Shown here: positions 1-20,643 of the stretch, piece after piece
Layout: each line of letters begins with the position of its first letter
Numbering within the stretch: the stretch's first letter is position 1
IMG/VR virus record: IMGVR_UViG_638341087_000007
Length of the DNA: 36,906 nucleotides
Origin: a virus
Taxonomy: Duplodnaviria; Heunggongvirae; Uroviricota; Caudoviricetes
Direction: 5' to 3' (one strand)
Translations under genes and position numbers: made by a program
Notes under the pieces: model-generated
Database searches by the model: none
The model's input: the letters and a program-made list of their open reading frames with translations, nothing else
Told to the model about the DNA's origin: nothing

Positions 1-188
1 AGAACGGCGACTGATGCTACAGTGGTGGGCCGATTTTCTGGATGCAAACAGAGAAAGATTTATCAGTCCATTTGAATATGCAAAGATTAATAATCCATTA
101 AAACAGTAATCATCCCGGGCAAATGCCCGGGAACCTACTCCAGGATTATTTTCTTTGTTAAAAAAACAGACAAAACGGTATTAACTTC

Positions 189-1743
189 GTAAGCGTACAG
201 CGAGGGCCGTATTGACGGGGATGTGTTATTCAGCTGGCAGTGCTATGCGCCACGGAAGCAGTTCGCTGACCCGGTTGACCGGCCAGTCTGCTATGACGCC
301 AAGCACATGGCGAAGGTAGCTTTCTGGATCCACGTCATTCAGTTTGCACATCCCGATCAGGCTGTACAGTAGCGCTCCCCGCTCACCACCATGGTCAGAG
401 CCGAAGAACAGGAAGTTTTTACGACCCAGACTGACCGCCCGCAGGGCATTTTCAGCGATGTTGTTGTCGATTTCCACCCAGCCATCGTTCGCATAGTACG
501 TCAGTGCCGGCCACTGGTTAAGTGCGTACGCGAACGCCTTCGCCAACTCTGAGTGTCGCGACAGGGTCTTCATCTTTTCACGCAACCAGCTTTCCAGGGA
601 TTTCAACAGCGGTTTCGTTTTTCGCTGACGTTCAGCAAGCCGCTGCTCTGCCGGCATTCCCCTTATATCCGCCTCTATGGCGTACAACTGACCGATCTGC
701 TCCAGGGCTTCTTCCGTCAGTGCTGACGGGATGCGGACGTGCACATCGTGGCTCTTTCGGCGGGCATGAGCCCAGCAGGCAGCTTCCGTTATCCCACCAT
801 TGCGATACAGCTCGTTGAACCCGGCGTACGCATCCGCTTGCAGCACACCGCTGAAGCAGGCAAGATGAGTCTGCGGATGGATGCCTTTTCTGTCCGGGCT
901 GTAAGCGAACCACACTGCAGGTGCCAACGCTGACCCTGTATTGCGGTCATCACGAACATACGCCCACAACCGCCCGGTCTTCGTCTTCTTATTACCCGGC
1001 AGCAGTACCTGGACCGGGGTATCATCGGCATGGAGTTTGCCGTCAGTCATGACATAGCCATGAAGCGCCTCTTCCAGCGGAGACAGCAGCCGGCAGCATG
1101 CATCCACCCAGCCCGACAGCAGTGAACGCCTCAGCTCCACACCTTGCCGGCCGTATATTTCTGACTGGCGATACAGCGGGGTGTGCTCTGCATACTTCGA
1201 GGTCAGCACGCGGGCCAGCAGTCCCGGTCCGGCGATACCCCGCTCGATGGGCCGCGAAGGTGCAGGTGCCTGCACGATGGCATCGCACTGAGTACAGGCA
1301 TGTTTTTCCCGTACCGTCCGGATAACCCGGAAGGCGCTACGCATCAACTCCAGCTGTTCGGCGGTATCCTCGCCCAGATAGCTCAGTGAACCGCCGCAGT
1401 TCGGGCAGCACGGCGCCGCAGGCAACAGTCGCTTTTCGTCACGGGGTAGTGATTCAGGGAACGGCTTACGGGTGCGGGTCTGACGCAACGGACGCTGTAC
1501 TGCCGGGTCATACACCCTACCAGTCAGCGTATCGCTCTCTTTCTGAAGCCGGTTCAGATCGGCTTCCATTTGTGCGATACGGCGGGAGACTTTTTCGGAA
1601 CGACTGCCGAAGTTCATCCGGCGGAGTTTATCCAGCTGCGCCTGCAGATGGTCTATTTCGCGCTCCCGGTTGCTCAGCTTTTCCTGCAGGGCGTGGATCA
1701 GCGCTTCCTGTTCGGCCAGGCGCTGTTTCAGCAGGAAGATTGA
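189..1743 (-). mobile_element. IS66-family insertion sequence remnant (right end plus tnpC), interrupted by the prophage left end
   Basis: Terminal GTAAGCG at 189-195, which I recall as the typical IS66-family IR start; TnpC-like frame stays open on the minus strand up to about 1743 with no start codon. Confidence 0.7.
226..1617 (-). pseudogene. IS66-family transposase TnpC, 5'-truncated
   Basis: 463-aa ORF with IS66 TnpC-like sequence (leucine-zipper region, CxxC zinc motif, DDE-like core). In-frame coding continues upstream of the annotated Met to 1743 ([21 protein letters not shown]...) without an initiator, so the N-terminus is missing. Confidence 0.8.
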
Positions 1744-1937
1744 TCAGACATGAGATAAATGAAGGGGGATCTGTGAGATAAATAACGAATTGGAGTGGGT
1801 TAACATGGGTTCTGGTGAACAGAACTGAAATTCTTTTCCGCTATACGATAGATAAGTCGGGCATTGAAATCATCCTTCCTGGCAACTTAGAATCGAGTTT
1901 GCTGAAACATGACCCGCAACAAAAAGGATGATTCCAA

Positions 1938-2099
1938 TGACTACTCAAAACAATAAGCATGATAGCCTGGATTACTCAGAAAAGCCCAAAAGCAAGCACA
2001 TCGTGACGTTCGAGCGCGATTCCGGTAGAAAAGGAGAATCGTCTTCCTCTGCCAATAAAACCACTATGCCGGCAGCCCCTGCCCCAGGGAAAAAATAAA
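1938..2099 (+). CDS. small hypothetical protein (53 aa, Lys-rich), low confidence
   Basis: ORF MTTQNNKHDSLDYSEKPKSKHIVTFERDSGRKGESSSSANKTTMPAAPAPGKK with AAGGA about 10 nt upstream; not in the ORF track because under 60 aa. Confidence 0.2.
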
Positions 2100-2101
2100 C
2101 A

Positions 2102-2734
2102 TCATTCATCGTTCGTTGCACGAACGCGCCTGATCTCCACTCTGGCAATCTGATCTGCTGGAATATAGGTTGCCAGAGCTCCCCAGTACTTATCAACCAC
2201 GCCTTTATACTCTTCCCATTCGTTACTGCCTGAAGGGCTGCTGTGCGTGACGTAAAGAACCATATCGCCTTTATTCCCCAGGGTAAACGGACCGTTAGGC
2301 CACTCTTCAAAGTTCCCTGGCAGCCGTGACATCATACCGGAACCATCGCGAAGAATCACTCTGACCTCGGTAACGCTGAAGCCTGTTTGATCAAACATTG
2401 CCTGCCATGCTGAGCTGGTATCGTCAGACCATGAAATATCATTATTCCACAGTAATCTGTACATCCATTTGCGACCGTACCTGCGCCACCACGCACCGCA
2501 TGTAACGGCACACAGAAGTGCTGGTGGTGTTGCCAGCCAGGCATTCAGACCTGCCCACATAACAGCCTGGTAAGCCATCATTGCTGTCAGGCCAAAAATC
2601 AGCGAAGAAAAAGTCACCTCAATGGGCTTGTGGTGATCCTTCAGTCCCACATTCGCAATAAAATACCCAATATAGCCACTGGTCAGGGTCACCAGTGTTG
2701 CCCATGGCAGATTTAACAACGAAACGTCAAACAT
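2102..2734 (-). CDS. membrane protein, 3 predicted TM helices plus soluble C-terminal domain; function unknown
   Basis: ORF 2102..2812; likely start is the internal Met (MFDVSLL...) at 2734 preceded by AGGGAG. Three hydrophobic helices then a roughly 110-aa hydrophilic domain. Sits just after the early-operon terminator. Confidence 0.6.
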   Translation of the reverse strand: MFDVSLLNLPWATLVTLTSGYIGYFIANVGLKDHHKPIEVTFSSLIFGLTAMMAYQAVMWAGLNAWLATPPALLCAVTCGAWWRRYGRKWMYRLLWNNDISWSDDTSSAWQAMFDQTGFSVTEVRVILRDGSGMMSRLPGNFEEWPNGPFTLGNKGDMVLYVTHSSPSGSNEWEEYKGVVDKYWGALATYIPADQIARVEIRRVRATNDE

Positions 2735-2772
2735 ATTTTCTCCCTGCATCCTGAATACTAAAGAGAGAGCAT

Positions 2773-2807
2773 AAAAAAAGCACGGTAAGGGGTCTACCGT
2801 GCTTTTA
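2773..2807 (-). terminator. rho-independent terminator after mor
   Basis: Perfect 9-bp stem AGCACGGTA/TACCGTGCT with 7-nt loop, flanked by an A6 run on plus strand, which is a U7 run on the minus-strand transcript. Confidence 0.65.
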
Positions 2808-2848
2808 TACAATAAGGAGATTTTTGAAAGGACTTTAACAAGCAGGAA

Positions 2849-3247
2849 TTATCTGGATTTGTTAACGTCTTTCGTCTCCTCTGGCAGATCTTCATCAAAC
2901 AACCTGCCCTGCATCCGATCCAGTTCTTCTTTTCTGACCCGCTTAACCACGCTGTAGACCCACTGAAGCGAAACACCAAACTTGCGGGCCAGTTCGTGGT
3001 GGTTGCGTCCGTTAAACTCCCTGAAGATTTCCCGGTCGCGCTGACTGACCTTCCATACCATGCCCATCGGGAAATAAACGTTTTGCCCGCCCCAGACCTG
3101 CATCATTCGGTTCGCGACGGCCTGACCAATCTGGTCGGCAATTGCGGGCTCAATATCAATAATCTCGCGAACGGTCTCAGAGGTATGCTGTGCCAGCTCC
3201 ACCAGGAGTTCCGGCCCTTTACTTCGAAACTGATTCAGGTCGCTCAT
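2849..3247 (-). CDS. mor: Mor/C-family transcriptional activator
   Basis: 132 aa; C-terminal HTH region (...REFNGRNHHELARKFGVSLQWVYSVVKRVRK) resembles Mu Mor as I recall it; position downstream of GemA. Confidence 0.7.
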   Translation of the reverse strand: MSDLNQFRSKGPELLVELAQHTSETVREIIDIEPAIADQIGQAVANRMMQVWGGQNVYFPMGMVWKVSQRDREIFREFNGRNHHELARKFGVSLQWVYSVVKRVRKEELDRMQGRLFDEDLPEETKDVNKSR

Positions 3248-11645: not shown

Positions 11646-11677
11646 ACCGGAAAGCATTGTGCTTTCCGGTTTTGTTC
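11646..11677 (+). terminator. rho-independent terminator downstream of the repressor gene
   Basis: Perfect 10-bp stem ACCGGAAAGC/GCTTTCCGGT, 5-nt loop, followed by TTTGTTC. Confidence 0.55.
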
Positions 11678-12440
11678 AGAAGTTGCAGATTACCAGTTCA
11701 CGGCGTGGCGTGGGTTTCCCCGCCAGACTGTAGTTGATATTCACCGTCTGTATGTTCAGTTCAGTGAACACCCGACGCATCTGCGGAATGTCATTCACCG
11801 AGATAATCATCTTTCCTCTGATGCACCGTGCCAGTTCTGCGAGTAGTGTGTAGTTCTCTTCAGGAAAATCCACACCATAGCCTTCCGTCCCCAGATAGGG
11901 CGGATCACAGTAGAACAGCGTGTGCGGACGGTCATAACGCTTAATGCACTGGTGCCAGTCCATGTGTTCTATCACCGTTCTGGAAAGCCGCAGGTGTGCC
12001 GCTGACAGTTCTTCTTCAATCCGTAGCAGGTTGAAGCGTGGCGGGGAGGTGGTGGAGGTGCCGAAGCTGTGCTCTGCCACCTTGCCCCCAAACGCCTGCT
12101 TCTGGAGGTAGTAGAACCGTGCCGCACGCTGGATATCCGTCAGTGTTTCTTCCGGGGTGATCTGCAGCCATTTGTAGATCTGCCGGCTAACCAGCGCCCA
12201 TTTGAATTGGCGGACAAATTCTTCCAGATGATGCTTTACTACCCGATACAGATTTACCAGTTCACCGTTGATATCGTTAATGACTTCGATCTTGCTGGGA
12301 GTCTTGAGAAAATAAAGTGCTGCTGCGCCGCAGAATGGCTCCACATAGCAGGTATGGAGTGGGAACTGAGGCAGAATGTGTTTGGCCAGACGACGTTTTC
12401 CCCCAATCCAGGGGACGATGGGTAAAGATTGTTCTTTCAT
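11676..12440 (-). CDS. Dam-like DNA N6-adenine methyltransferase (orphan)
   Basis: N-terminal PIVPWIGGKRR AdoMet-binding motif and DPPY catalytic motif; the track start at 12521 is a GTG, first ATG is at 12440. Confidence 0.85.
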   Translation of the reverse strand: MKEQSLPIVPWIGGKRRLAKHILPQFPLHTCYVEPFCGAAALYFLKTPSKIEVINDINGELVNLYRVVKHHLEEFVRQFKWALVSRQIYKWLQITPEETLTDIQRAARFYYLQKQAFGGKVAEHSFGTSTTSPPRFNLLRIEEELSAAHLRLSRTVIEHMDWHQCIKRYDRPHTLFYCDPPYLGTEGYGVDFPEENYTLLAELARCIRGKMIISVNDIPQMRRVFTELNIQTVNINYSLAGKPTPRRELVICNF

Positions 12441-13264: not shown

Positions 13265-13480
13265 TTATCCGGGGTGATTTTCTGACCTTATCTGGTCCAG
13301 GGCGTAAGTGAGCCCTTCTGCAAAAACAGAAGTATCAAACTGCTTTTGTATTTCCTGAAAATGAACAGTGGCACGACAGATACTCAGTTCTCCGCGATGT
13401 AACCGGATAATATCTTCCAGAACATTGTTCACTGCTTCAGCACGGCGCTGATGTTCTGTTAACGTTAATCGGGGATTCAT
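13265..13480 (-). CDS. hypothetical small protein (71 aa), uncertain
   Basis: Strong RBS (AAGGAG, 6 nt spacing) but its start codon overlaps the X2 start codon divergently by 2 nt. Confidence 0.3.
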   Translation of the reverse strand: MNPRLTLTEHQRRAEAVNNVLEDIIRLHRGELSICRATVHFQEIQKQFDTSVFAEGLTYALDQIRSENHPG

Positions 13481-13883
13481 GATGCACTCCTTAAATGATG
13501 ATTTTTATGTACTCACCGGCAAAATATTCTGCCGATTACTGAACACGCATCCGGTACCTCAGGTTTTGATTTATTCTGGTTTTTTCGATATCCCGGACCA
13601 GGTTGATCACGACCAGAAAAAGTGCCGGTATTTTATTGATACGCTGATATGGCTTCGGGATAACAGCTATATTCGTTACTCTCAGTTGCTGGCTGTGGGA
13701 GCGGCTGATGTCGTCCTCACGGAAAAAACGCTCTGTCTGCTCAATGCCATGCCGACCTTTCTGCAGCCCCGGCCCGTGCCATTTAAAGAGTCGCTTCTGG
13801 ATGCAGTAAAAACCGGTGAAAATGCAGTCATCGCTGAATGCGTATCCCGGATTATGCGTTACGTGTTTAATGAACGTAAGTGA
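13479..13883 (+). CDS. small protein X2 (134 aa), paralogue of X1
   Basis: Same conserved pattern as X1; GGGGA RBS; 3' end overlaps the convergent NTPase gene by 25 nt. Confidence 0.6.
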   Translation: MMHSLNDDFYVLTGKIFCRLLNTHPVPQVLIYSGFFDIPDQVDHDQKKCRYFIDTLIWLRDNSYIRYSQLLAVGAADVVLTEKTLCLLNAMPTFLQPRPVPFKESLLDAVKTGENAVIAECVSRIMRYVFNERK

Positions 13884-14602
13884 GGTTTATCCGTTGTCTG
13901 CATAATCCCGATAGCCAGTGCGAGGGGAAGCAATTCCGGGGAAACTTTTTCAAACAGCGATTCCCATTCTCCTCTCGCCATCACTCTGTCCAGCCCGCCC
14001 TCCAGCTGCATTTCAGCAATCTTCCTGATTTCCCGGAACAACGCCGCTTTGATCTCTTCATGCTCAGCTTTATTTTCCGGTGTCAGAATGTATTCGTCGA
14101 AGAACCGGGGAGGCTGGTTAACGGGGATTGTGTTCACCGGGATGTGTTCCTGCTTCCCGTACTTCGGGGCCGAAAAACATTCTGTTGGCTGACCAGCGAG
14201 TTTACGTAACTCCTTCATGAGCAGCTCCTGATCGTAAACTGTCATCAGTGCCGCAATGGTGGCATGCAGTGCATCGGGCAGTATCCAGGGTTGCCGGCCC
14301 GTGGGGCATATAACATCCAGCAGCTCATTCGTCCGACAGATACGCTCCTCGCCGTATGACAACAGGCCCTGTCCCGTGTATTCCTCCAGCCTGATCACTG
14401 TGCCAGCCCGTGGCTTCTGCCAGGTCGTCAGATCATCGCCACTCATACGGCGCTCATTCTCCACGTCAGCAGCATCGACAATGACGCTGTTTCCGAGTTC
14501 CTGTTTCACCATCTCTTCTATCCGCGCCAGTACGTAACTTTTACCGCTGCCCACAGGACCGGACACAGTGACAGTGATGACCGGATTCAGTGTGTGCGTC
14601 AT
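13859..14602 (-). CDS. P-loop NTPase, small-kinase-like N-terminal domain with unknown C-terminal domain
   Basis: Walker A VSGPVGSGKSYV near the N-terminus, candidate Walker B VIVDAAD; no further family recognised. Confidence 0.6.
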   Translation of the reverse strand: MTHTLNPVITVTVSGPVGSGKSYVLARIEEMVKQELGNSVIVDAADVENERRMSGDDLTTWQKPRAGTVIRLEEYTGQGLLSYGEERICRTNELLDVICPTGRQPWILPDALHATIAALMTVYDQELLMKELRKLAGQPTECFSAPKYGKQEHIPVNTIPVNQPPRFFDEYILTPENKAEHEEIKAALFREIRKIAEMQLEGGLDRVMARGEWESLFEKVSPELLPLALAIGIMQTTDKPHLRSLNT

Positions 14603-14683: not shown

Positions 14684-14732
14684 TTCGCGCCCTGTATTTG
14701 TGATGCTGTCTCCACCAGACAAGGAGACACAC

Positions 14733-15083
14733 ATGAAAAGCCTGAAAAAATTCATTCCCCCTGTTAAAAAACCTCGCCTCAGCGGCTGGCTGCTGACCTC
14801 AGTGCTGTTGCTGGGCACCATCGCTCTGGTCTCGCCACAGCAGTTGCCTGTTGTGATCTACAAGCTGGCACTCATCACGCTGGCAGCAGTGCTGGGTTAC
14901 TGGCTTGACCGTTCGCTCTTCCCCAAAGCCCGTCCCGGTCAGTACCTGAAACATGACGACAGGCTGATGGCTGAAGGGCGTTTCCCTGTGCAGACCGGCC
15001 TTCACCTTGTGTTTGCTGCTGCGTTAATCCGCCGTGCACTGATTGTTGCAGCGATCTGTCTGGCTGTGGCAACAGGACTGTGA
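14733..15083 (+). CDS. membrane protein, putative holin
   Basis: 116 aa with three hydrophobic segments, first gene of the lysis cassette, AAGGAG RBS; holin role is positional inference only. Confidence 0.4.
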   Translation: MKSLKKFIPPVKKPRLSGWLLTSVLLLGTIALVSPQQLPVVIYKLALITLAAVLGYWLDRSLFPKARPGQYLKHDDRLMAEGRFPVQTGLHLVFAAALIRRALIVAAICLAVATGL

Positions 15084-15085
15084 CC

Positions 15086-15811
15086 ATGAACTGGCCTCAA
15101 ATCACCCTCATTATTCTGTTCGCCTTTGGTCTGGGCGTAACCGCCATCAGACACGGAGAACCACGTAACGATAAATACAGCTTCTGGTGGCAACTTACTG
15201 GCAACCTGGTGATTGTCTGGCTGCTCTGGTGTGGCGGCTTCTTCAGTCAGGCCCGCGCAGCGCAGCCTCCGCAGGCTGCGCTGCAGTATCGCGATGATGT
15301 GATCCGTAATGCCCGGCTTGAATGGGGACTGTCTGCGCCGGTGGCTGATTTCGCTGCGCAACTGCATCAGGAAAGCGGCTGGCGACCTGATGCGATCTCG
15401 CCGGCTGGCGCTCAGGGACTGGCGCAGTTTATGCCTGCCACTGCCGACTGGATAAGCCAGTTGATGCCGGCGCTGAGCAGTCGAGAGCCGTTTAATCCGG
15501 CATGGGCTATCCGGGCGCTGGTCAGTTATGACCGCTGGCTGTGGCAGCGCGTCAGCGCCGCCAACGACTGCGAGCGTATGGCCATGACACTGTCGGGCTA
15601 TAACGGTGGTCTGGGCTGGGTACAGCGGGACAGGCAACTTGCATCACAGAAAGGGCTGGACCGTACCCGCTGGTTCGGACATGTCGCCACGGTGAATGCC
15701 GGACGCAATGCTGCCAGCTGGCGGGAGAACCGTCATTATCCCCAGCGCATCCTGTTCACGCTGGCCCCGCGTTATCTCTCATGGGGAGGGGCAAGCTGTG
15801 TGGGTACGTAA
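15086..15811 (+). CDS. lytic transglycosylase (SLT domain) endolysin with N-terminal TM/SAR-like segment
   Basis: SLT-type motif HQESGWRPDAISPAGAQGLAQFMPATA; N-terminal 60 aa contain two hydrophobic helices. Confidence 0.7.
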   Translation: MNWPQITLIILFAFGLGVTAIRHGEPRNDKYSFWWQLTGNLVIVWLLWCGGFFSQARAAQPPQAALQYRDDVIRNARLEWGLSAPVADFAAQLHQESGWRPDAISPAGAQGLAQFMPATADWISQLMPALSSREPFNPAWAIRALVSYDRWLWQRVSAANDCERMAMTLSGYNGGLGWVQRDRQLASQKGLDRTRWFGHVATVNAGRNAASWRENRHYPQRILFTLAPRYLSWGGASCVGT

Positions 15812-19150: not shown

Positions 19151-20643
19151 TGGCGAGGGGTATCTGGGTTTCACCCGATGAATTTGTTGCTTTTTCTGAG
19201 CCTCAGAAATCACTGACCGCGCAGATTGCCTCCCGCAGCCGCGCGATCGACTTTTACGGACTGGGCATGTATCTGCCCAATCCTGATCCCATTCTCAAGG
19301 CTCAGGGACGGGATATCCGTATCTACCGCGAACTGCGCACCGACCCGCTGGTCGGGGGCTGTATCCGCAGACGTAAAGCAGCGCTCAAATCGCTGGAGCG
19401 TGGACTGGAGCGCGGTCACGCTTCTGCCCGGGTCTTCCGTTTCATCCGCGACATGCTCGACGATCTGGATCTGTCCCGCATCATCGGTGAGATGAGCGAT
19501 GCCGTGCTCTACGGGTATCAGCCCTGTGAAATCATGTGGGGCCGTTCGGTCAGGGCGTGGGCGGTGACGGATATTGTCGGCAAACCGCCTGAGTGGTTTC
19601 AGTTTGATACGGACAACTGCCTGCGCTTCCGGGCGCGTGATGCGGGTGTGGAGGGTGAGCTGCTGTCACCGTCAAAATTCGTGGTGCCGGCACAGGATGC
19701 CTCGTATGACAATCCTTACGGTTTCCCTGACCTGTCCATGTGCTTCTGGCCGGTCGCCTTCAAGAAAGGCGGGATGAAATTCTGGCTCCGCTTTGCCGAA
19801 AAGTTTGGCTCCCCGTGGGTGATCGGTAAGCACCCGAGGGGTGCAAATGATGCAGAGATTGAAAAACTGCTGGACTCCATGGAGCAGATGGTGGAGGACG
19901 CGGTGGCCGCCATCCCCGATGACAGCAGCATCGAACTCAAAGCCGCGGATGGTAAGGCGGACAGCAGCGAGGTATTCCGCGAGCTGATCACACTGTCACG
20001 CAGTGAGATCTCCATTGCATTACTTGGTCAGAATCAGACCACGGAAGCGAACAGTAACAAGGCCTCTGCACAGGCCGGGCTGGAGGTAACGGCTGATATC
20101 CGCGATGCGGATGCGGACATCATTCAGGCAGCAGTGAATCAGGTTATCAGAACGGTGGTCACCCTGAACTTCGGCGATGTGCCGTGTCCGGTCTGGGCCA
20201 TGTGGGAACAGGAGACCATTGATGACACCCGCGCCACCCGCGACGAAAAACTCACCCGCGCGGGACTGCGCCTGACCCCGCAGTACTTCATGCGGGAGTA
20301 CCAGCTGCAGGAGGGGGATATTGACCTCTCTGATGCACCGGTTGCGGACGGGGCAGTGCCTGCGGAATTTGCCGAGGCGATAAGCGCCGATCATGATGCA
20401 CAACAGCAGCTTGACGACGCGCTGGACATTCTGATGAACGGAGGTGTGTTAAATGGCACGCTGGAACCCGTCCTGGCACCTCTGTTTAAGCGGGTCGAAA
20501 ATGGGGTTAACCCGTCTGAGCTGCTGGGCGAACTGGCGGAGCTCTACCCTCAGATGAACACGGACGATCTGCAGGAACGGTTGGCCCGCATTCTCTTTGT
20601 GGCAAATATCTGGGGGCGTCTGCATGAGCGTGACAACGGCTGA
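19150..20643 (+). CDS. portal protein (Mu gp29 / DUF935-like)
   Basis: 497 aa, follows terminase with overlapping stop/start. Confidence 0.75.
   Translation: MARGIWVSPDEFVAFSEPQKSLTAQIASRSRAIDFYGLGMYLPNPDPILKAQGRDIRIYRELRTDPLVGGCIRRRKAALKSLERGLERGHASARVFRFIRDMLDDLDLSRIIGEMSDAVLYGYQPCEIMWGRSVRAWAVTDIVGKPPEWFQFDTDNCLRFRARDAGVEGELLSPSKFVVPAQDASYDNPYGFPDLSMCFWPVAFKKGGMKFWLRFAEKFGSPWVIGKHPRGANDAEIEKLLDSMEQMVEDAVAAIPDDSSIELKAADGKADSSEVFRELITLSRSEISIALLGQNQTTEANSNKASAQAGLEVTADIRDADADIIQAAVNQVIRTVVTLNFGDVPCPVWAMWEQETIDDTRATRDEKLTRAGLRLTPQYFMREYQLQEGDIDLSDAPVADGAVPAEFAEAISADHDAQQQLDDALDILMNGGVLNGTLEPVLAPLFKRVENGVNPSELLGELAELYPQMNTDDLQERLARILFVANIWGRLHERDNG

What the first reader, a model, noticed from the sequence alone, without database searches (positions are those of the whole stretch)
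2102..2807. Membrane protein gene at the extreme left end, downstream of the early-operon terminator, in the slot where Mu has C
After mor there is a strong terminator (9-bp stem plus U7 on the minus-strand transcript) and then, only about 25-40 nt later, a gene for a 3-TM protein with a soluble C-terminal domain. In Mu the late activator C occupies this position. A terminator-flanked, end-proximal membrane protein is typical of lysogenic-conversion cargo such as superinfection exclusion or abortive-infection effectors.
Basis: partly seen in the sequence, partly recalled or inferred. Interest (0 to 1): 0.5.

Follow-up and report, generated by a model that had tools for sequence, protein, structure and literature searches.

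The report
Prophage cargo: membrane protein plus proline-rich microprotein
The gene is real and is optional cargo at the end of a Mu-like E. coli prophage, but it is only half of a widespread, uncharacterised two-gene cassette (a membrane protein with an Sm-like cytoplasmic domain plus a tiny proline-rich protein) that hops between unrelated phages and is a testable candidate for a new phage-exclusion or toxin-antidote module.

Summary
A strong terminator (2776-2806, minus strand) follows mor. About 40 nt later comes a 210-aa gene (2102-2734, minus; not 2807) for an N-out/C-in 3-TM protein. Its cytoplasmic beta-barrel has an Sm/LSm-like fold.

The phage is BcepMu-like (Bcepmuvirus), not Mu-like in layout, and its end is at 1741. 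The "C slot" analogy therefore fails: in BcepMu, mor is simply the last gene.

The cargo reading is supported. 640 complete E. coli genomes carry near-identical mor-gemA, but only about 120-130 carry this gene.

The main new result is that the gene is half of a conserved cassette. A 53-aa disordered, proline-rich microprotein gene (1937-2098, plus) lies tail-to-tail with it, 3 nt apart, behind a conserved sigma-70 promoter. The same pair recurs in Mu-like ends, in head and tail modules of siphophage-like prophages, in Bradyrhizobium islands and in a cyanophage. A published P. stutzeri proteomics study detected similar microproteins next to a DUF6338 gene.

Function is unproven. My best guess (about 0.4) is a tightly repressed membrane effector controlled by the microprotein, acting in phage exclusion or abortive infection. 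No known defence, Sie, holin or channel family matches.

The parts
1741..1783 (.). Left terminus of the transposable prophage, with two direct TGAGATAAAT repeats (1751-1760, 1774-1783) that look like transposase-binding sites.
   Evidence: Four independent insertion sites diverge exactly before 1741. Direct repeat D1. Their role as transposase sites is inferred.
1808..1826 (+). Small hairpin followed by a T-rich stretch. It may insulate against read-in transcription from host DNA.
   Evidence: Terminator-like site in the scan. Weak, and function is inferred.
1864..1893 (+). Sigma-70-type promoter of the microprotein gene (TTGAAA-18-TAGAAT). It points inward, antisense to the membrane gene.
   Evidence: 10 of 12 consensus match. 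The same hexamers, spacing and distance to the ATG (37-43 nt) are kept in 8 divergent enterobacterial cassettes.
1862..1939 (+). 16-nt inverted repeat (1862-1877 and 1924-1939) joining the -35 region to the Shine-Dalgarno and start codon of the microprotein gene.
   Evidence: 94% complementary. 5 of 15 pairs show compensatory changes among 7 loci. Meaning unknown.
1937..2098 (+). Gene for a 53-aa hydrophilic, proline-rich, disordered microprotein (MTTQNNKHDSLDYSEKPK...PAAPAPGKK). It is the partner of the membrane gene.
   Evidence: RefSeq WP_001571575. PHROG 15726. A convergent abutting partner is present in nearly all complete loci. Reciprocal look-ups succeed. dN/dS is 0.11-0.25. AF2 gives no secondary structure and pTM 0.13.
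2102..2734 (-). Gene for the 210-aa inner-membrane protein: three TM helices, N-out/C-in, cytoplasmic Sm/LSm-like beta-barrel. It is a sub-threshold relative of DUF6338.
2735..2775 (-). 5' UTR of the membrane gene, with SD GGGAG. No sigma-70-like promoter is detected. A CUCUCUC/GGGAGAG pairing could mask the SD.
   Evidence: No minus-strand promoter-like site. The MFE structure pairs the SD. The SD-masking idea was not tested for conservation.
2776..2806 (-). Intrinsic terminator closing the early operon and forming the upstream boundary of the cassette. It may also stop plus-strand antisense transcripts.
   Evidence: 13-pair stem plus U-run. z = -3.3. A hairpin plus T-run lies 41-44 nt before the ATG in divergent cassettes, with different stem sequences. 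Bidirectionality is inferred from the TTTTAT that follows on the plus strand.
2849..3247 (-). mor, the last gene of the leftward early operon (context only, not part of the cassette).
   Evidence: Pfam Mor, E 1.1e-43. RefSeq annotation.

Best explanation
Window 1860-2806 is a self-contained accessory cassette (a 'moron') carried at the outer end of a BcepMu-like transposable prophage. It has two genes.

1. A 210-aa inner-membrane protein (2102-2734, minus). It has three TM helices, its N-terminus faces the periplasm, and it carries a cytoplasmic Sm/LSm-like beta-barrel.
2. A 53-aa intrinsically disordered, proline-rich microprotein (1937-2098, plus). It is encoded tail-to-tail with gene 1 and ends in a polyproline-plus-lysine tail.

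Shown:
- The pair is conserved as a unit across unrelated phages and across bacterial classes.
- It is dispensable for the phage.
- The microprotein ORF is under purifying selection and has a conserved sigma-70 promoter.
- The membrane gene sits behind a strong terminator without a recognisable promoter of its own.

Inferred mechanism:
- The membrane protein is made only at a low level, or only when early (or, in other phages, late) transcription reads through.
- The microprotein is made constitutively. Its transcript also runs antisense across the membrane gene.
- The microprotein docks by its PPxP-K/R tail on the Sm-like (SH3-like barrel) cytoplasmic domain and holds or tunes the membrane protein.
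- When that control is lost or overridden, for example on infection by another phage, the membrane protein, probably as an oligomer, perturbs the inner membrane. This either excludes the incoming phage or aborts the infection.

Confidence by layer: about 0.9 that this is a mobile two-gene accessory cassette; about 0.6 that the two products act together as proteins; about 0.4 that the biological role is phage exclusion or abortive infection through the membrane.
For: Accessory status:
- BcepMu lacks the cassette.
- mor-gemA is in 640 E. coli genomes, the gene in 118-132.
- Cargo-less relatives end about 150 nt after mor.

Mobility between phage types:
- After Mor in enterobacterial Mu-like prophages.
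- Between the head-tail connector and head-closure genes.
- Between tail genes.
- Between capsid and tail-completion genes.
- In Bradyrhizobium/Afipia chromosomal islands.
- In Synechococcus phage Ssp-JY41.

Pairing of the two genes:
- A 42-60 aa convergent ORF has its stop -20 to +7 nt from the gene's stop (43 nt in one Serratia locus) in nearly all complete, distinct loci. The background is 11% for other long ORFs in the same loci.
- Reciprocal look-ups from three microprotein homologs all land next to a 207-214 aa partner.
- 20 of 24 partners have at least 3 Pro in the last 10 residues and K/R in the last 4, against 14 of 646 other small ORFs (the motif was defined after seeing the data).
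- pS exceeds pN, with dN/dS 0.11-0.25.
- In P. stutzeri, three Pro-rich small proteins ending ...APPPPKK and ...PPPPPKKGG lie on the same strand directly after a DUF6338 gene. They were detected by mass spectrometry with 44-114 PSMs (PMC10433244). The association therefore survives a change of orientation, which favours a protein-level partnership.

Tight control of the membrane gene:
- Conserved terminator 41-44 nt upstream, with different stems in different lineages.
- No promoter-like site for the membrane gene.
- Conserved inward promoter for the microprotein.

Fold and topology.

Defence neighbourhood: one distant copy lies about 1 kb from a RosmerTA-like RmrA gene.
Against: - There is no experimental datum on function.
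- No hit to any PADLOC model, to Sie/Abi/holin Pfam families or to NCBIfam.
- Binding of the microprotein to the Sm-like domain is conjecture.
- Profile similarity between these microproteins and the P. stutzeri or cyanophage ones is weak. At least as good a score came from 2 of 500 shuffles for SEP2 and 10-12 of 500 for JY41_a and JY41_b. SEP1 (123 of 500) and JY41_c (158 of 500) were not significant.
- Some enterobacterial microproteins end in acidic residues (...APPPRD...PFPSEE), not K/R.
- Lack of an own promoter, together with co-orientation with the early or late operon, would also fit a lytic-cycle function.
- GC content does not mark the cassette as foreign.
Confidence: 0.4

Rival explanations
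1. Non-toxic superinfection exclusion. The membrane protein sits in the inner membrane of the lysogen and blocks DNA entry of incoming phages, as HK97 gp15 or T4 Imm do. The microprotein is a regulator or a cofactor.
For: Moron-like placement in tail and head modules and at a prophage end. Inner-membrane location with periplasm-facing conserved LPW at the N-terminus. Accessory distribution.
Against: No promoter for the membrane gene is detectable in the lysogenic configuration, and a strong terminator stands in front of it. The largest and best conserved soluble part is cytoplasmic, not periplasmic. No similarity to known Sie proteins.
Confidence: 0.15
2. Addiction or toxin-antidote module without a defence role. 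The membrane protein is a toxin, the labile microprotein (plus its antisense transcript) is the antidote, and the pair stabilises itself and its carrier element.
For: Convergent layout with an antisense promoter, insulation of the large gene, and a small, abundant, disordered partner (PMC10433244). Tandem extra copies of the small gene in two lineages.
Against: A transposable prophage gains little from plasmid-type addiction. The cassette is frequently degraded or absent without obvious cost. Known membrane toxins of type I systems are under 60 aa, whereas here the large protein is the membrane one.
Confidence: 0.15
3. Lytic-cycle helper. The protein would be a holin-like, antiholin-like or membrane-remodelling factor, expressed by read-through of the early (Mu-like) or late (siphophage) operon, that tunes lysis timing or protects the producing cell.
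For: The topology (3 TM, N-out/C-in) is that of class I holins. There are weak BFVD matches of the TM part to holins, E 0.04-1. The gene is always co-oriented with the operon it sits in and has no promoter of its own.
Against: The prophage has its own holin, SLT and spanin-like cassette. About 80% of near-identical E. coli relatives do without the gene. The 110-residue folded C-terminal domain and the partner microprotein are not holin features. No holin Pfam family is hit.
Confidence: 0.1
4. Peptide-handling system. The membrane protein processes, exports or gives immunity to the proline-rich peptides, which act outside the cell or on ribosomes, like proline-rich antimicrobial peptides or a signal.
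For: Multi-copy tandem small genes in P. stutzeri and in the cyanophage. The P. stutzeri paper notes DUF6338 in biosynthetic gene clusters and raises an antimicrobial role. Invariant His35 in the conserved DHHK loop, and an SWSD motif.
Against: The peptides have no signal or leader, no Cys, and no recognisable core/leader split. The conserved loop and the folded domain are cytoplasmic. No transporter or peptidase family is hit.
Confidence: 0.1
5. One reading: the gene replaces or stands in for the late activator C of Mu.
For: It is the next gene after mor.
Against: It is a membrane protein with no HTH. The genome has the BcepMu layout, in which mor is terminal. The gene is absent from most relatives.
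Confidence: 0.01

Closest known systems
Pfam DUF6338 (PF19865) and the P. stutzeri ATCC 14405 locus Pstu14405_RS12030 with three proline-rich small proteins (PMC10433244)
   Same: A membrane protein of about 200 aa. Homologs of the window protein hit the DUF6338 profile at 23.9-25.9 bits, E about 1e-5. It is directly adjacent to small proteins of 36-47 aa that are hydrophilic, proline-rich and end in PPPPKK. Three tandem copies occur, as in the cyanophage.
   Different: All hits fall below the gathering score of 26.5 bits, and the window protein itself gives none. In P. stutzeri the small genes are co-directional and downstream, whereas here the small gene is convergent. The authors thought the small proteins were confined to P. 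stutzeri. No function is known for either locus.
Prophage morons encoding inner-membrane superinfection-exclusion proteins (HK97 gp15, T4 Imm, P22 SieA). From general knowledge, not tested here.
   Same: A small accessory gene inserted in otherwise conserved phage modules. Its product is an inner-membrane protein and it is dispensable for the phage.
   Different: No sequence or family relationship. Those are single genes expressed in the lysogen from their own promoter. Here there is a partner microprotein, no visible promoter and a large cytoplasmic domain.
Two-part membrane abortive-infection systems (lambda RexA/RexB; P22 SieB with its Esc antidote). From general knowledge.
   Same: A prophage-borne polytopic membrane component plus a second soluble component that controls it.
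   Different: RexA is a 279-aa folded sensor, and Esc is an in-frame fragment of SieB. Here the partner is a separate 53-aa disordered protein. No homology.
TM-plus-small-beta-barrel effectors of signalling defence systems (CBASS Cap15, Pycsar TM effectors). From general knowledge.
   Same: N-terminal TM helices followed by a small cytoplasmic beta-barrel that would receive the activating or inhibiting input.
   Different: No cyclase or other signal-making gene is nearby. The barrel is Sm/LSm-like rather than the Cap15 barrel. PADLOC, which holds those models, gives no hit.
MscS-type mechanosensitive channels
   Same: Three TM helices, N-out/C-in, followed by a cytoplasmic domain of the Sm-like fold class. 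Sm folds tend to form rings.
Class I holins
   Same: Three TM helices and N-out/C-in topology. Weak structural matches of the TM part.
   Different: A 110-residue folded C-terminal domain instead of a short charged tail. It is not in the lysis cassette, which the phage has separately. It is absent from most relatives.

Membership tests
Pfam DUF6338 (PF19865) | Whole-protein score at or above the curated gathering score (26.5 bits). | tested here: not met
   The window protein has no hit at E of 1 or less. 19 of 36 family members hit, the best at 25.9 bits and E 8.5e-6, all just below 26.5. It is a sister or outlying branch rather than a formal member.
Pfam DUF6338 (PF19865) | Integral membrane protein of about 200 residues (profile length 205). 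| tested here: met
   210 aa with three TM helices. The matched stretch covers TM3 to the start of the beta domain, profile positions 54-143 of 205.
PHROG 12870 (phage protein family, function unknown) | Full-length significant match to the family profile. | tested here: met
   E 6.3e-134, residues 1-210 against profile 1-210 of 210.
Moron (accessory gene unit in a phage genome) | Present in some but absent from closely related phages, with flanks conserved. | tested here: met
   640 genomes have mor-gemA and 118-132 have the gene. BcepMu and two E. coli relatives end just after mor. The cassette sits at different positions in other phage types.
Moron (accessory gene unit in a phage genome) | Own promoter and terminator, allowing expression from the repressed prophage. 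| tested here: inconclusive
   The cassette is bounded by a terminator (2776-2806) and holds a conserved sigma-70 promoter, but that promoter drives the microprotein and not the membrane gene. No promoter was found for the latter.
Moron (accessory gene unit in a phage genome) | Base composition different from the neighbouring phage genes. | tested here: not met
   GC is 0.44-0.51 in the cassette against 0.48-0.55 in the adjacent early genes, so there is no clear step.
Known anti-phage defence systems (PADLOC-DB v2) | Match of either protein to a model of a known or candidate defence protein. | tested here: not met
   0 families for both proteins at E of 1 or less.
Superinfection-exclusion or abortive-infection function | Reduces plating or productive infection of other phages when present. 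| not testable with these tools
   Needs plating, adsorption and DNA-entry assays with and without the cassette.
Mu C / Mor transcription activators | Mor/C family domain with a C-terminal helix-turn-helix. | tested here: not met
   No Mor hit for the 210-aa protein, while the neighbouring gene hits Mor at E 1.1e-43. The protein is membrane-embedded.
Class I holin | Three TM helices, N-out/C-in. | tested here: met
   Positive-inside analysis over 36 sequences. AF2 helices.
Class I holin | Short charged cytoplasmic tail, position in the lysis cassette next to the endolysin, and conservation in related phages. | tested here: not met
   110-residue folded C-terminal domain. The lysis cassette lies elsewhere (putative holin and SLT, M-17 locus 14702-15780, about 31 bases higher in the window). 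The gene is absent from most relatives. No holin Pfam hit.
MscS-like channel | MS_channel sequence signature, or structural match of TM3 plus beta domain to MscS. | tested here: not met
Sm/LSm-like fold (C-terminal domain) | N-terminal short helix followed by a strongly bent five-stranded beta-sheet, recognised by structure comparison. | tested here: met
Toxin-antitoxin module | The large product is toxic when expressed alone and is neutralised by the small one. | not testable with these tools
   Only the layout (insulated large gene, promoter-driven small convergent gene) is suggestive.

The most novel reading that the evidence does not exclude
A previously unrecognised two-component phage-exclusion or abortive-infection system that moves as a 1-kb moron between Mu-like, HK97-like and other tailed phages of Proteobacteria and cyanobacteria. 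A membrane-tethered Sm-like domain would assemble into a ring-shaped pore or membrane-perturbing oligomer. A constitutively made, intrinsically disordered microprotein would keep it shut by plugging in through its C-terminal polyproline-lysine tail. Because that tail (PPP/PPPP) needs EF-P for translation, the microprotein could also act as a built-in sensor of translational takeover by an infecting phage.
Probability: 0.2. Interest if true: 0.8.

Novelty: new variant of a known kind. Interest (0 to 1): 0.55.

Why it matters
Prophage morons are a main source of new anti-phage and host-modifying functions. This one is compact (about 950 bp), present in about 2.4% of complete E. coli genomes, including the well-studied strain 83972 and the probiotic M-17, and spread across very different phages.

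It links an orphan Pfam family (DUF6338 and relatives; 522 clusters at 50% identity) to a class of proline-rich microproteins that annotation pipelines mostly miss. The only paper that saw such microproteins considered them species-specific.

If the pair proves to be a defence or toxin-antidote system, it would add a new architecture: a membrane-anchored Sm-like domain controlled by a disordered microprotein. It would also explain why such microproteins are abundant. If it proves to be a lytic-cycle helper, it would still assign a role to a widespread phage protein family.

Either way, the experiments needed are simple and the constructs are small.

Tried and rejected
- Family searches. Pfam, NCBIfam and PADLOC on both proteins gave nothing usable. 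PHROGs gave only families of unknown function.
- PDB by sequence profile. Nothing below E 0.5.
- AFDB fold search. The library was not available.
- Complex prediction. I built 19 fused membrane-linker-microprotein pairs to model the complex with AF2.
- P. stutzeri locus. I tried to fetch it by searching SEP2 and found no match in the protein collection. Homology between its DUF6338 protein and the window protein therefore rests only on the sub-threshold Pfam hits.
- Microprotein profile against the P. stutzeri and cyanophage small proteins. Only weak support for SEP2, JY41_a and JY41_b. SEP1 and JY41_c were not significant. I therefore call them similar in kind, not proven homologs.
- 'Alternative cargo' after mor in Klebsiella phage KP12. 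The 109-aa ORF is a fragment of a Mu gp27-like terminase subunit, so that record is a permuted partial assembly and says nothing about the slot.
- Promoter for the membrane gene. None was found by the scan, and nothing between terminator and ATG is conserved among lineages.
- Rfam on 1650-3000. Only chance-level matches.
- GC composition. No clear foreign signature.
- Domain fusions in longer family members. The extensions are low-complexity or mis-called starts and give no information.
- MscS and holin kinship. Considered and not supported.
- Literature. Searches for the prophage, for strain 83972 and for similar modules found nothing on function.
Full report
WHAT IS THERE

Window 226-1740 (minus) is an IS66-family transposase gene (Pfam DDE_Tnp_IS66, E 5e-106). 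It is cut by a prophage whose terminus lies at 1741. Copies of the same prophage inserted in tdh, fliC and fadM share sequence with the window only from TGATCAGACATGAG... onward.

From about 11,000 down to 2849, a leftward early operon encodes a DDE transposase, an ExeA-type ATPase, Gam, GemA and Mor. Late genes run rightward from about 13.5 kb.

The closest phage record is Escherichia phage PhiKM, classified in Bcepmuvirus (95% identity over 87% of 24 kb). In BcepMu itself the Mor homolog gp01 is the last gene, 364 bp from the end. This is therefore a BcepMu-type transposable phage, not a Mu-type one. The early operon points outward, and there is no position equivalent to Mu's C.

THE OBSERVATION

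It has a 13-pair stem (GC-rich core GCACGGTA/TACCGTGC), a 5-nt loop and a U7 run, at 2806-2776 on the minus strand. The mor-to-ATG intergenic RNA folds at -29.9 kcal/mol, z = -3.3.

The gene is real, but it runs 2102-2734 (210 aa, ATG, SD GGGAG), as in RefSeq (WP_000460689/690) and as in all homologs. The stretch up to 2807 is the 5' UTR plus the terminator.

AF2 with a 36-sequence alignment gives mean pLDDT 84.7. It shows helices at 11-27, 37-60 and 65-97, and a beta-rich domain at 119-205 with pLDDT mostly 86-95.

Charge counts over the family put the N-terminus and loop 2 outside, and loop 1 (the conserved DHHK) and the very basic stretch after TM3 inside. This gives N-out/C-in topology with a cytoplasmic C-terminal domain (inference by the positive-inside rule).

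FAMILY

The window protein has no Pfam, NCBIfam or PADLOC hit. It matches PHROG 12870, of unknown function, full length.

Nineteen of 36 homologs hit Pfam DUF6338 just under threshold (up to 25.9 bits against 26.5), over TM3 and the start of the beta domain. The family is large: 522 representatives at 50% identity, nearly all 200-215 aa with the same architecture and no informative fusions.

The most conserved part is, unusually, TM1 through TM2 (LPWATLVTLASGY.GYFIANVG.KDHHK.ID.TFSTL.FG). An SWSD motif follows TM3, and there are motifs inside the barrel.

IT IS CARGO

Near-identical mor-gemA occurs in 640 of 5,426 complete E. coli genomes. The cassette occurs in 118 at high identity. Any version of the gene detectable by blastn occurs in 132, all chromosomal.

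In most of the others, homology to the window stops about 40 nt inside the 3' end of mor. In the two I inspected, host genes begin about 145-160 nt after mor.

The prophage has its own putative holin, SLT transglycosylase and downstream lysis genes, and only one Mor-family gene.

THE MAIN NEW RESULT: A TWO-GENE CASSETTE

Three nucleotides beyond the stop of the membrane gene, on the other strand, ends a 53-aa ORF (1937-2098; RefSeq WP_001571575; PHROG 15726).

In every complete, non-degraded locus I could read, an ORF of 42-60 aa lies in the same tail-to-tail position. The stop codons are -20 to +7 nt apart, or 43 nt in one Serratia locus. These loci are:
- Enterobacterial Mu-like prophages (Citrobacter, Serratia, Salmonella, Symbiopectobacterium and others).
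- Bradyrhizobium and Afipia islands.
- An HK97-like prophage where the pair sits between the head-tail connector and head-closure genes.
- Prophages where it sits among tail genes, or between capsid and tail-completion genes.

Only 11% of other long ORFs in the same loci have such a neighbour.

Going the other way, microprotein homologs from Ensifer, Ochrobactrum and E. coli each sit next to a 207-214 aa partner.

The small ORFs are hydrophilic and proline-rich (16% Pro against 7% background). 20 of 24 end in a proline run followed by K/R (...PPPSPKKK...VPPPPKK...PAPKPPGK...PAAPAPGKK), against 14 of 646 other small ORFs. I chose this motif after seeing the sequences.

Pairs that are not saturated give dN/dS 0.11-0.25, so the ORF is translated and constrained. 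AF2 predicts no secondary structure, with pTM 0.13.

In Synechococcus phage Ssp-JY41 the membrane gene lies at one end of the record. Three tandem small ORFs ending ...PPPPKPKR...PPPPKPKR and ...PPPPKR lie at the other end, pointing at it across the presumed circular junction.

INDEPENDENT EXPERIMENTAL SUPPORT FROM THE LITERATURE

A digest-free proteomics study of Pseudomonas stutzeri ATCC 14405 (PMC10433244) found three unannotated proline-rich small proteins of 36, 47 and 41 aa. Examples are MVSSPGSGVQTNGANPPAPANVRPAMAPTAPPPPKK and ...SAPPSAPPPPPKKGG.

They are encoded directly after a DUF6338 gene of 194 aa, on the same strand. They were detected with 44-114 spectra under two growth conditions. 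The membrane protein was not seen, but membrane fractions were not analysed. The authors judged the small proteins to be confined to P. stutzeri.

I could not retrieve that locus. Profile similarity of those peptides to mine is weak: SEP2 was matched or beaten by 2 of 500 shuffles, and SEP1 was not significant. I therefore treat them as the same kind of partner, not as proven homologs.

The association holds in both orientations. This argues that the partnership is between the proteins, and not only an antisense-RNA arrangement.

REGULATORY ANATOMY

The microprotein gene has a sigma-70-type promoter (TTGAAA-18-TAGAAT, 1864-1893). Its hexamers, spacing and distance to the ATG are kept in eight divergent enterobacterial cassettes. 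Transcripts from it would run antisense through the whole membrane gene up to the terminator hairpin, which is followed by TTTTAT on the plus strand (inference).

The membrane gene has no promoter-like site. A hairpin plus T-run lies 41-44 nt before its ATG in several lineages with different stem sequences: GCACGGTA..., GCACGGTGG..., GACACAGTGG... and GCGCAA.... The terminator is therefore part of the design.

The MFE fold also pairs the SD with an upstream CUCUCUC. I did not test this pairing for conservation.

A 16-nt inverted repeat joins the -35 region and the SD/ATG of the microprotein gene, with some compensatory changes. Its meaning is open.

Taken together, the large gene looks deliberately kept low, and the small gene looks constitutively on.

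MECHANISM: WHAT IS SHOWN AND WHAT IS GUESSED

Shown:
- The unit is mobile, accessory and made of two genes.
- The topology and fold of the large protein.
- The disorder and constraint of the small protein.
- The promoter and terminator layout.

Inferred:
- The two proteins interact. The proline-plus-basic tail is the kind of ligand that SH3-like small barrels bind, and LSm domains are known to bind short peptides. This comes from general knowledge.
- The small protein restrains a membrane-active large protein.
- The biological pay-off is exclusion or abortion of competing phages.

The last point rests on analogy with other prophage morons, on the tight repression, and on a single defence-island neighbour (RmrA-like). 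I put it at about 0.4.

Rivals are non-toxic Sie (0.15), plain toxin-antidote (0.15), lytic-cycle helper (0.1) and peptide handling (0.1).

COMPARISON WITH KNOWN SYSTEMS

The cassette works most like two-part membrane Abi systems (RexAB, SieB/Esc) or TM-plus-barrel effectors (Cap15). It is placed like HK97 gp15-type morons. It is a member of none of these families.

It shares 3 TM plus an Sm-like domain with MscS, and 3 TM N-out/C-in with class I holins. It fails the sequence and structure tests for both.

Its only family ties are PHROG 12870 and a sub-threshold link to DUF6338, both without known function.

VERDICT

- The cargo interpretation is supported.
- The C-slot analogy is rejected.
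- The exclusion function is plausible but untested.

The finding becomes more interesting than first stated. It is a conserved membrane-protein and microprotein pair spread over many phage types, with published proteomic evidence for the microprotein class.

Noticed in passing
window 226-1740 (minus), junction at 1740/1741: An IS66-family transposase gene is interrupted by the prophage insertion. Its N-terminal part must lie beyond the other prophage end, outside the window.
   Followed up: partly
window 1-130: The first about 105 nt read as the C-terminal end of an ORF (...QWWADFLDANRERFISPFEYAKINNPLKQ*), followed by a perfect CCCGGGCAAATGCCCGGG hairpin. It looks like the 3' end of an integrase-type gene, so the IS66 may sit in a genomic island. 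This was read by eye and not checked.
   Followed up: no
window 1750-1894: About 145 nt of the prophage left end (terminal repeats up to the microprotein promoter) occur at about 90% identity, unannotated, on more than 100 large E. coli plasmids, many from poultry/APEC strains. These may be remnants of a related Mu-like end.
   Followed up: no
window 1862-1877 and 1924-1939: A 16-nt inverted repeat links the -35 region of the microprotein promoter to its SD and start codon. It is kept, with compensatory changes, in other enterobacterial cassettes. It could be an operator pair, or an SD-masking hairpin that forms only in read-in transcripts.
   Followed up: partly
L076 925-1354 (Synechococcus phage Ssp-JY41, record 19924-20353): Three tandem unannotated small ORFs (50, 47, 43 aa), each ending in PPPPKPKR or PPPPKR. 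They face the family's membrane gene across the record ends and mirror the three tandem small proteins of P. stutzeri.
   Followed up: partly
L068 3184-3420 (E. coli SCU-105); L011 7690-7977 (Serratia marcescens): Some cassette-bearing prophages have one more small gene of unknown function (78 aa, 95 aa) between mor and the cassette. The post-mor region therefore behaves as a cargo hotspot.
   Followed up: partly
L006 4524-4853 (Klebsiella phage KP12, OM835952): The ORF after mor in this record is a fragment of a Mu gp27-like terminase small subunit. The record, filed under Vequintavirinae, appears to be a permuted or chimeric partial assembly of a BcepMu-like phage.
   Followed up: partly
window 11676-12440 (minus), about 13265-13480 (minus), 13859-14602 (minus): Between the early and late regions lie a Dam-type adenine methylase and two further genes on the opposite strand to the late operon, one of 247 aa with a faint AAA hit. 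These may be further accessory genes.
   Followed up: no
L013 9756-11371 (Allosphingosinicella MAG): A distant copy of the cassette lies about 1 kb from a DUF4411 plus Peptidase_M78 pair whose large protein matches RmrA of the RosmerTA defence system, E 4e-21.
   Followed up: partly
L070 38824-39944 (E. coli M-17, beyond the window's right edge): The complete prophage (about 38 kb, inserted in otsA in strain M-17) ends with an oppositely oriented tail-fibre gene and a recombinase family gene. This suggests a Gin-like invertible host-range segment.
   Followed up: no
window 2735-2768 (minus): In the predicted fold of the 5' UTR, the Shine-Dalgarno of the membrane gene pairs with an upstream CUCUCUC run. 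This is a possible translational brake.
   Followed up: no
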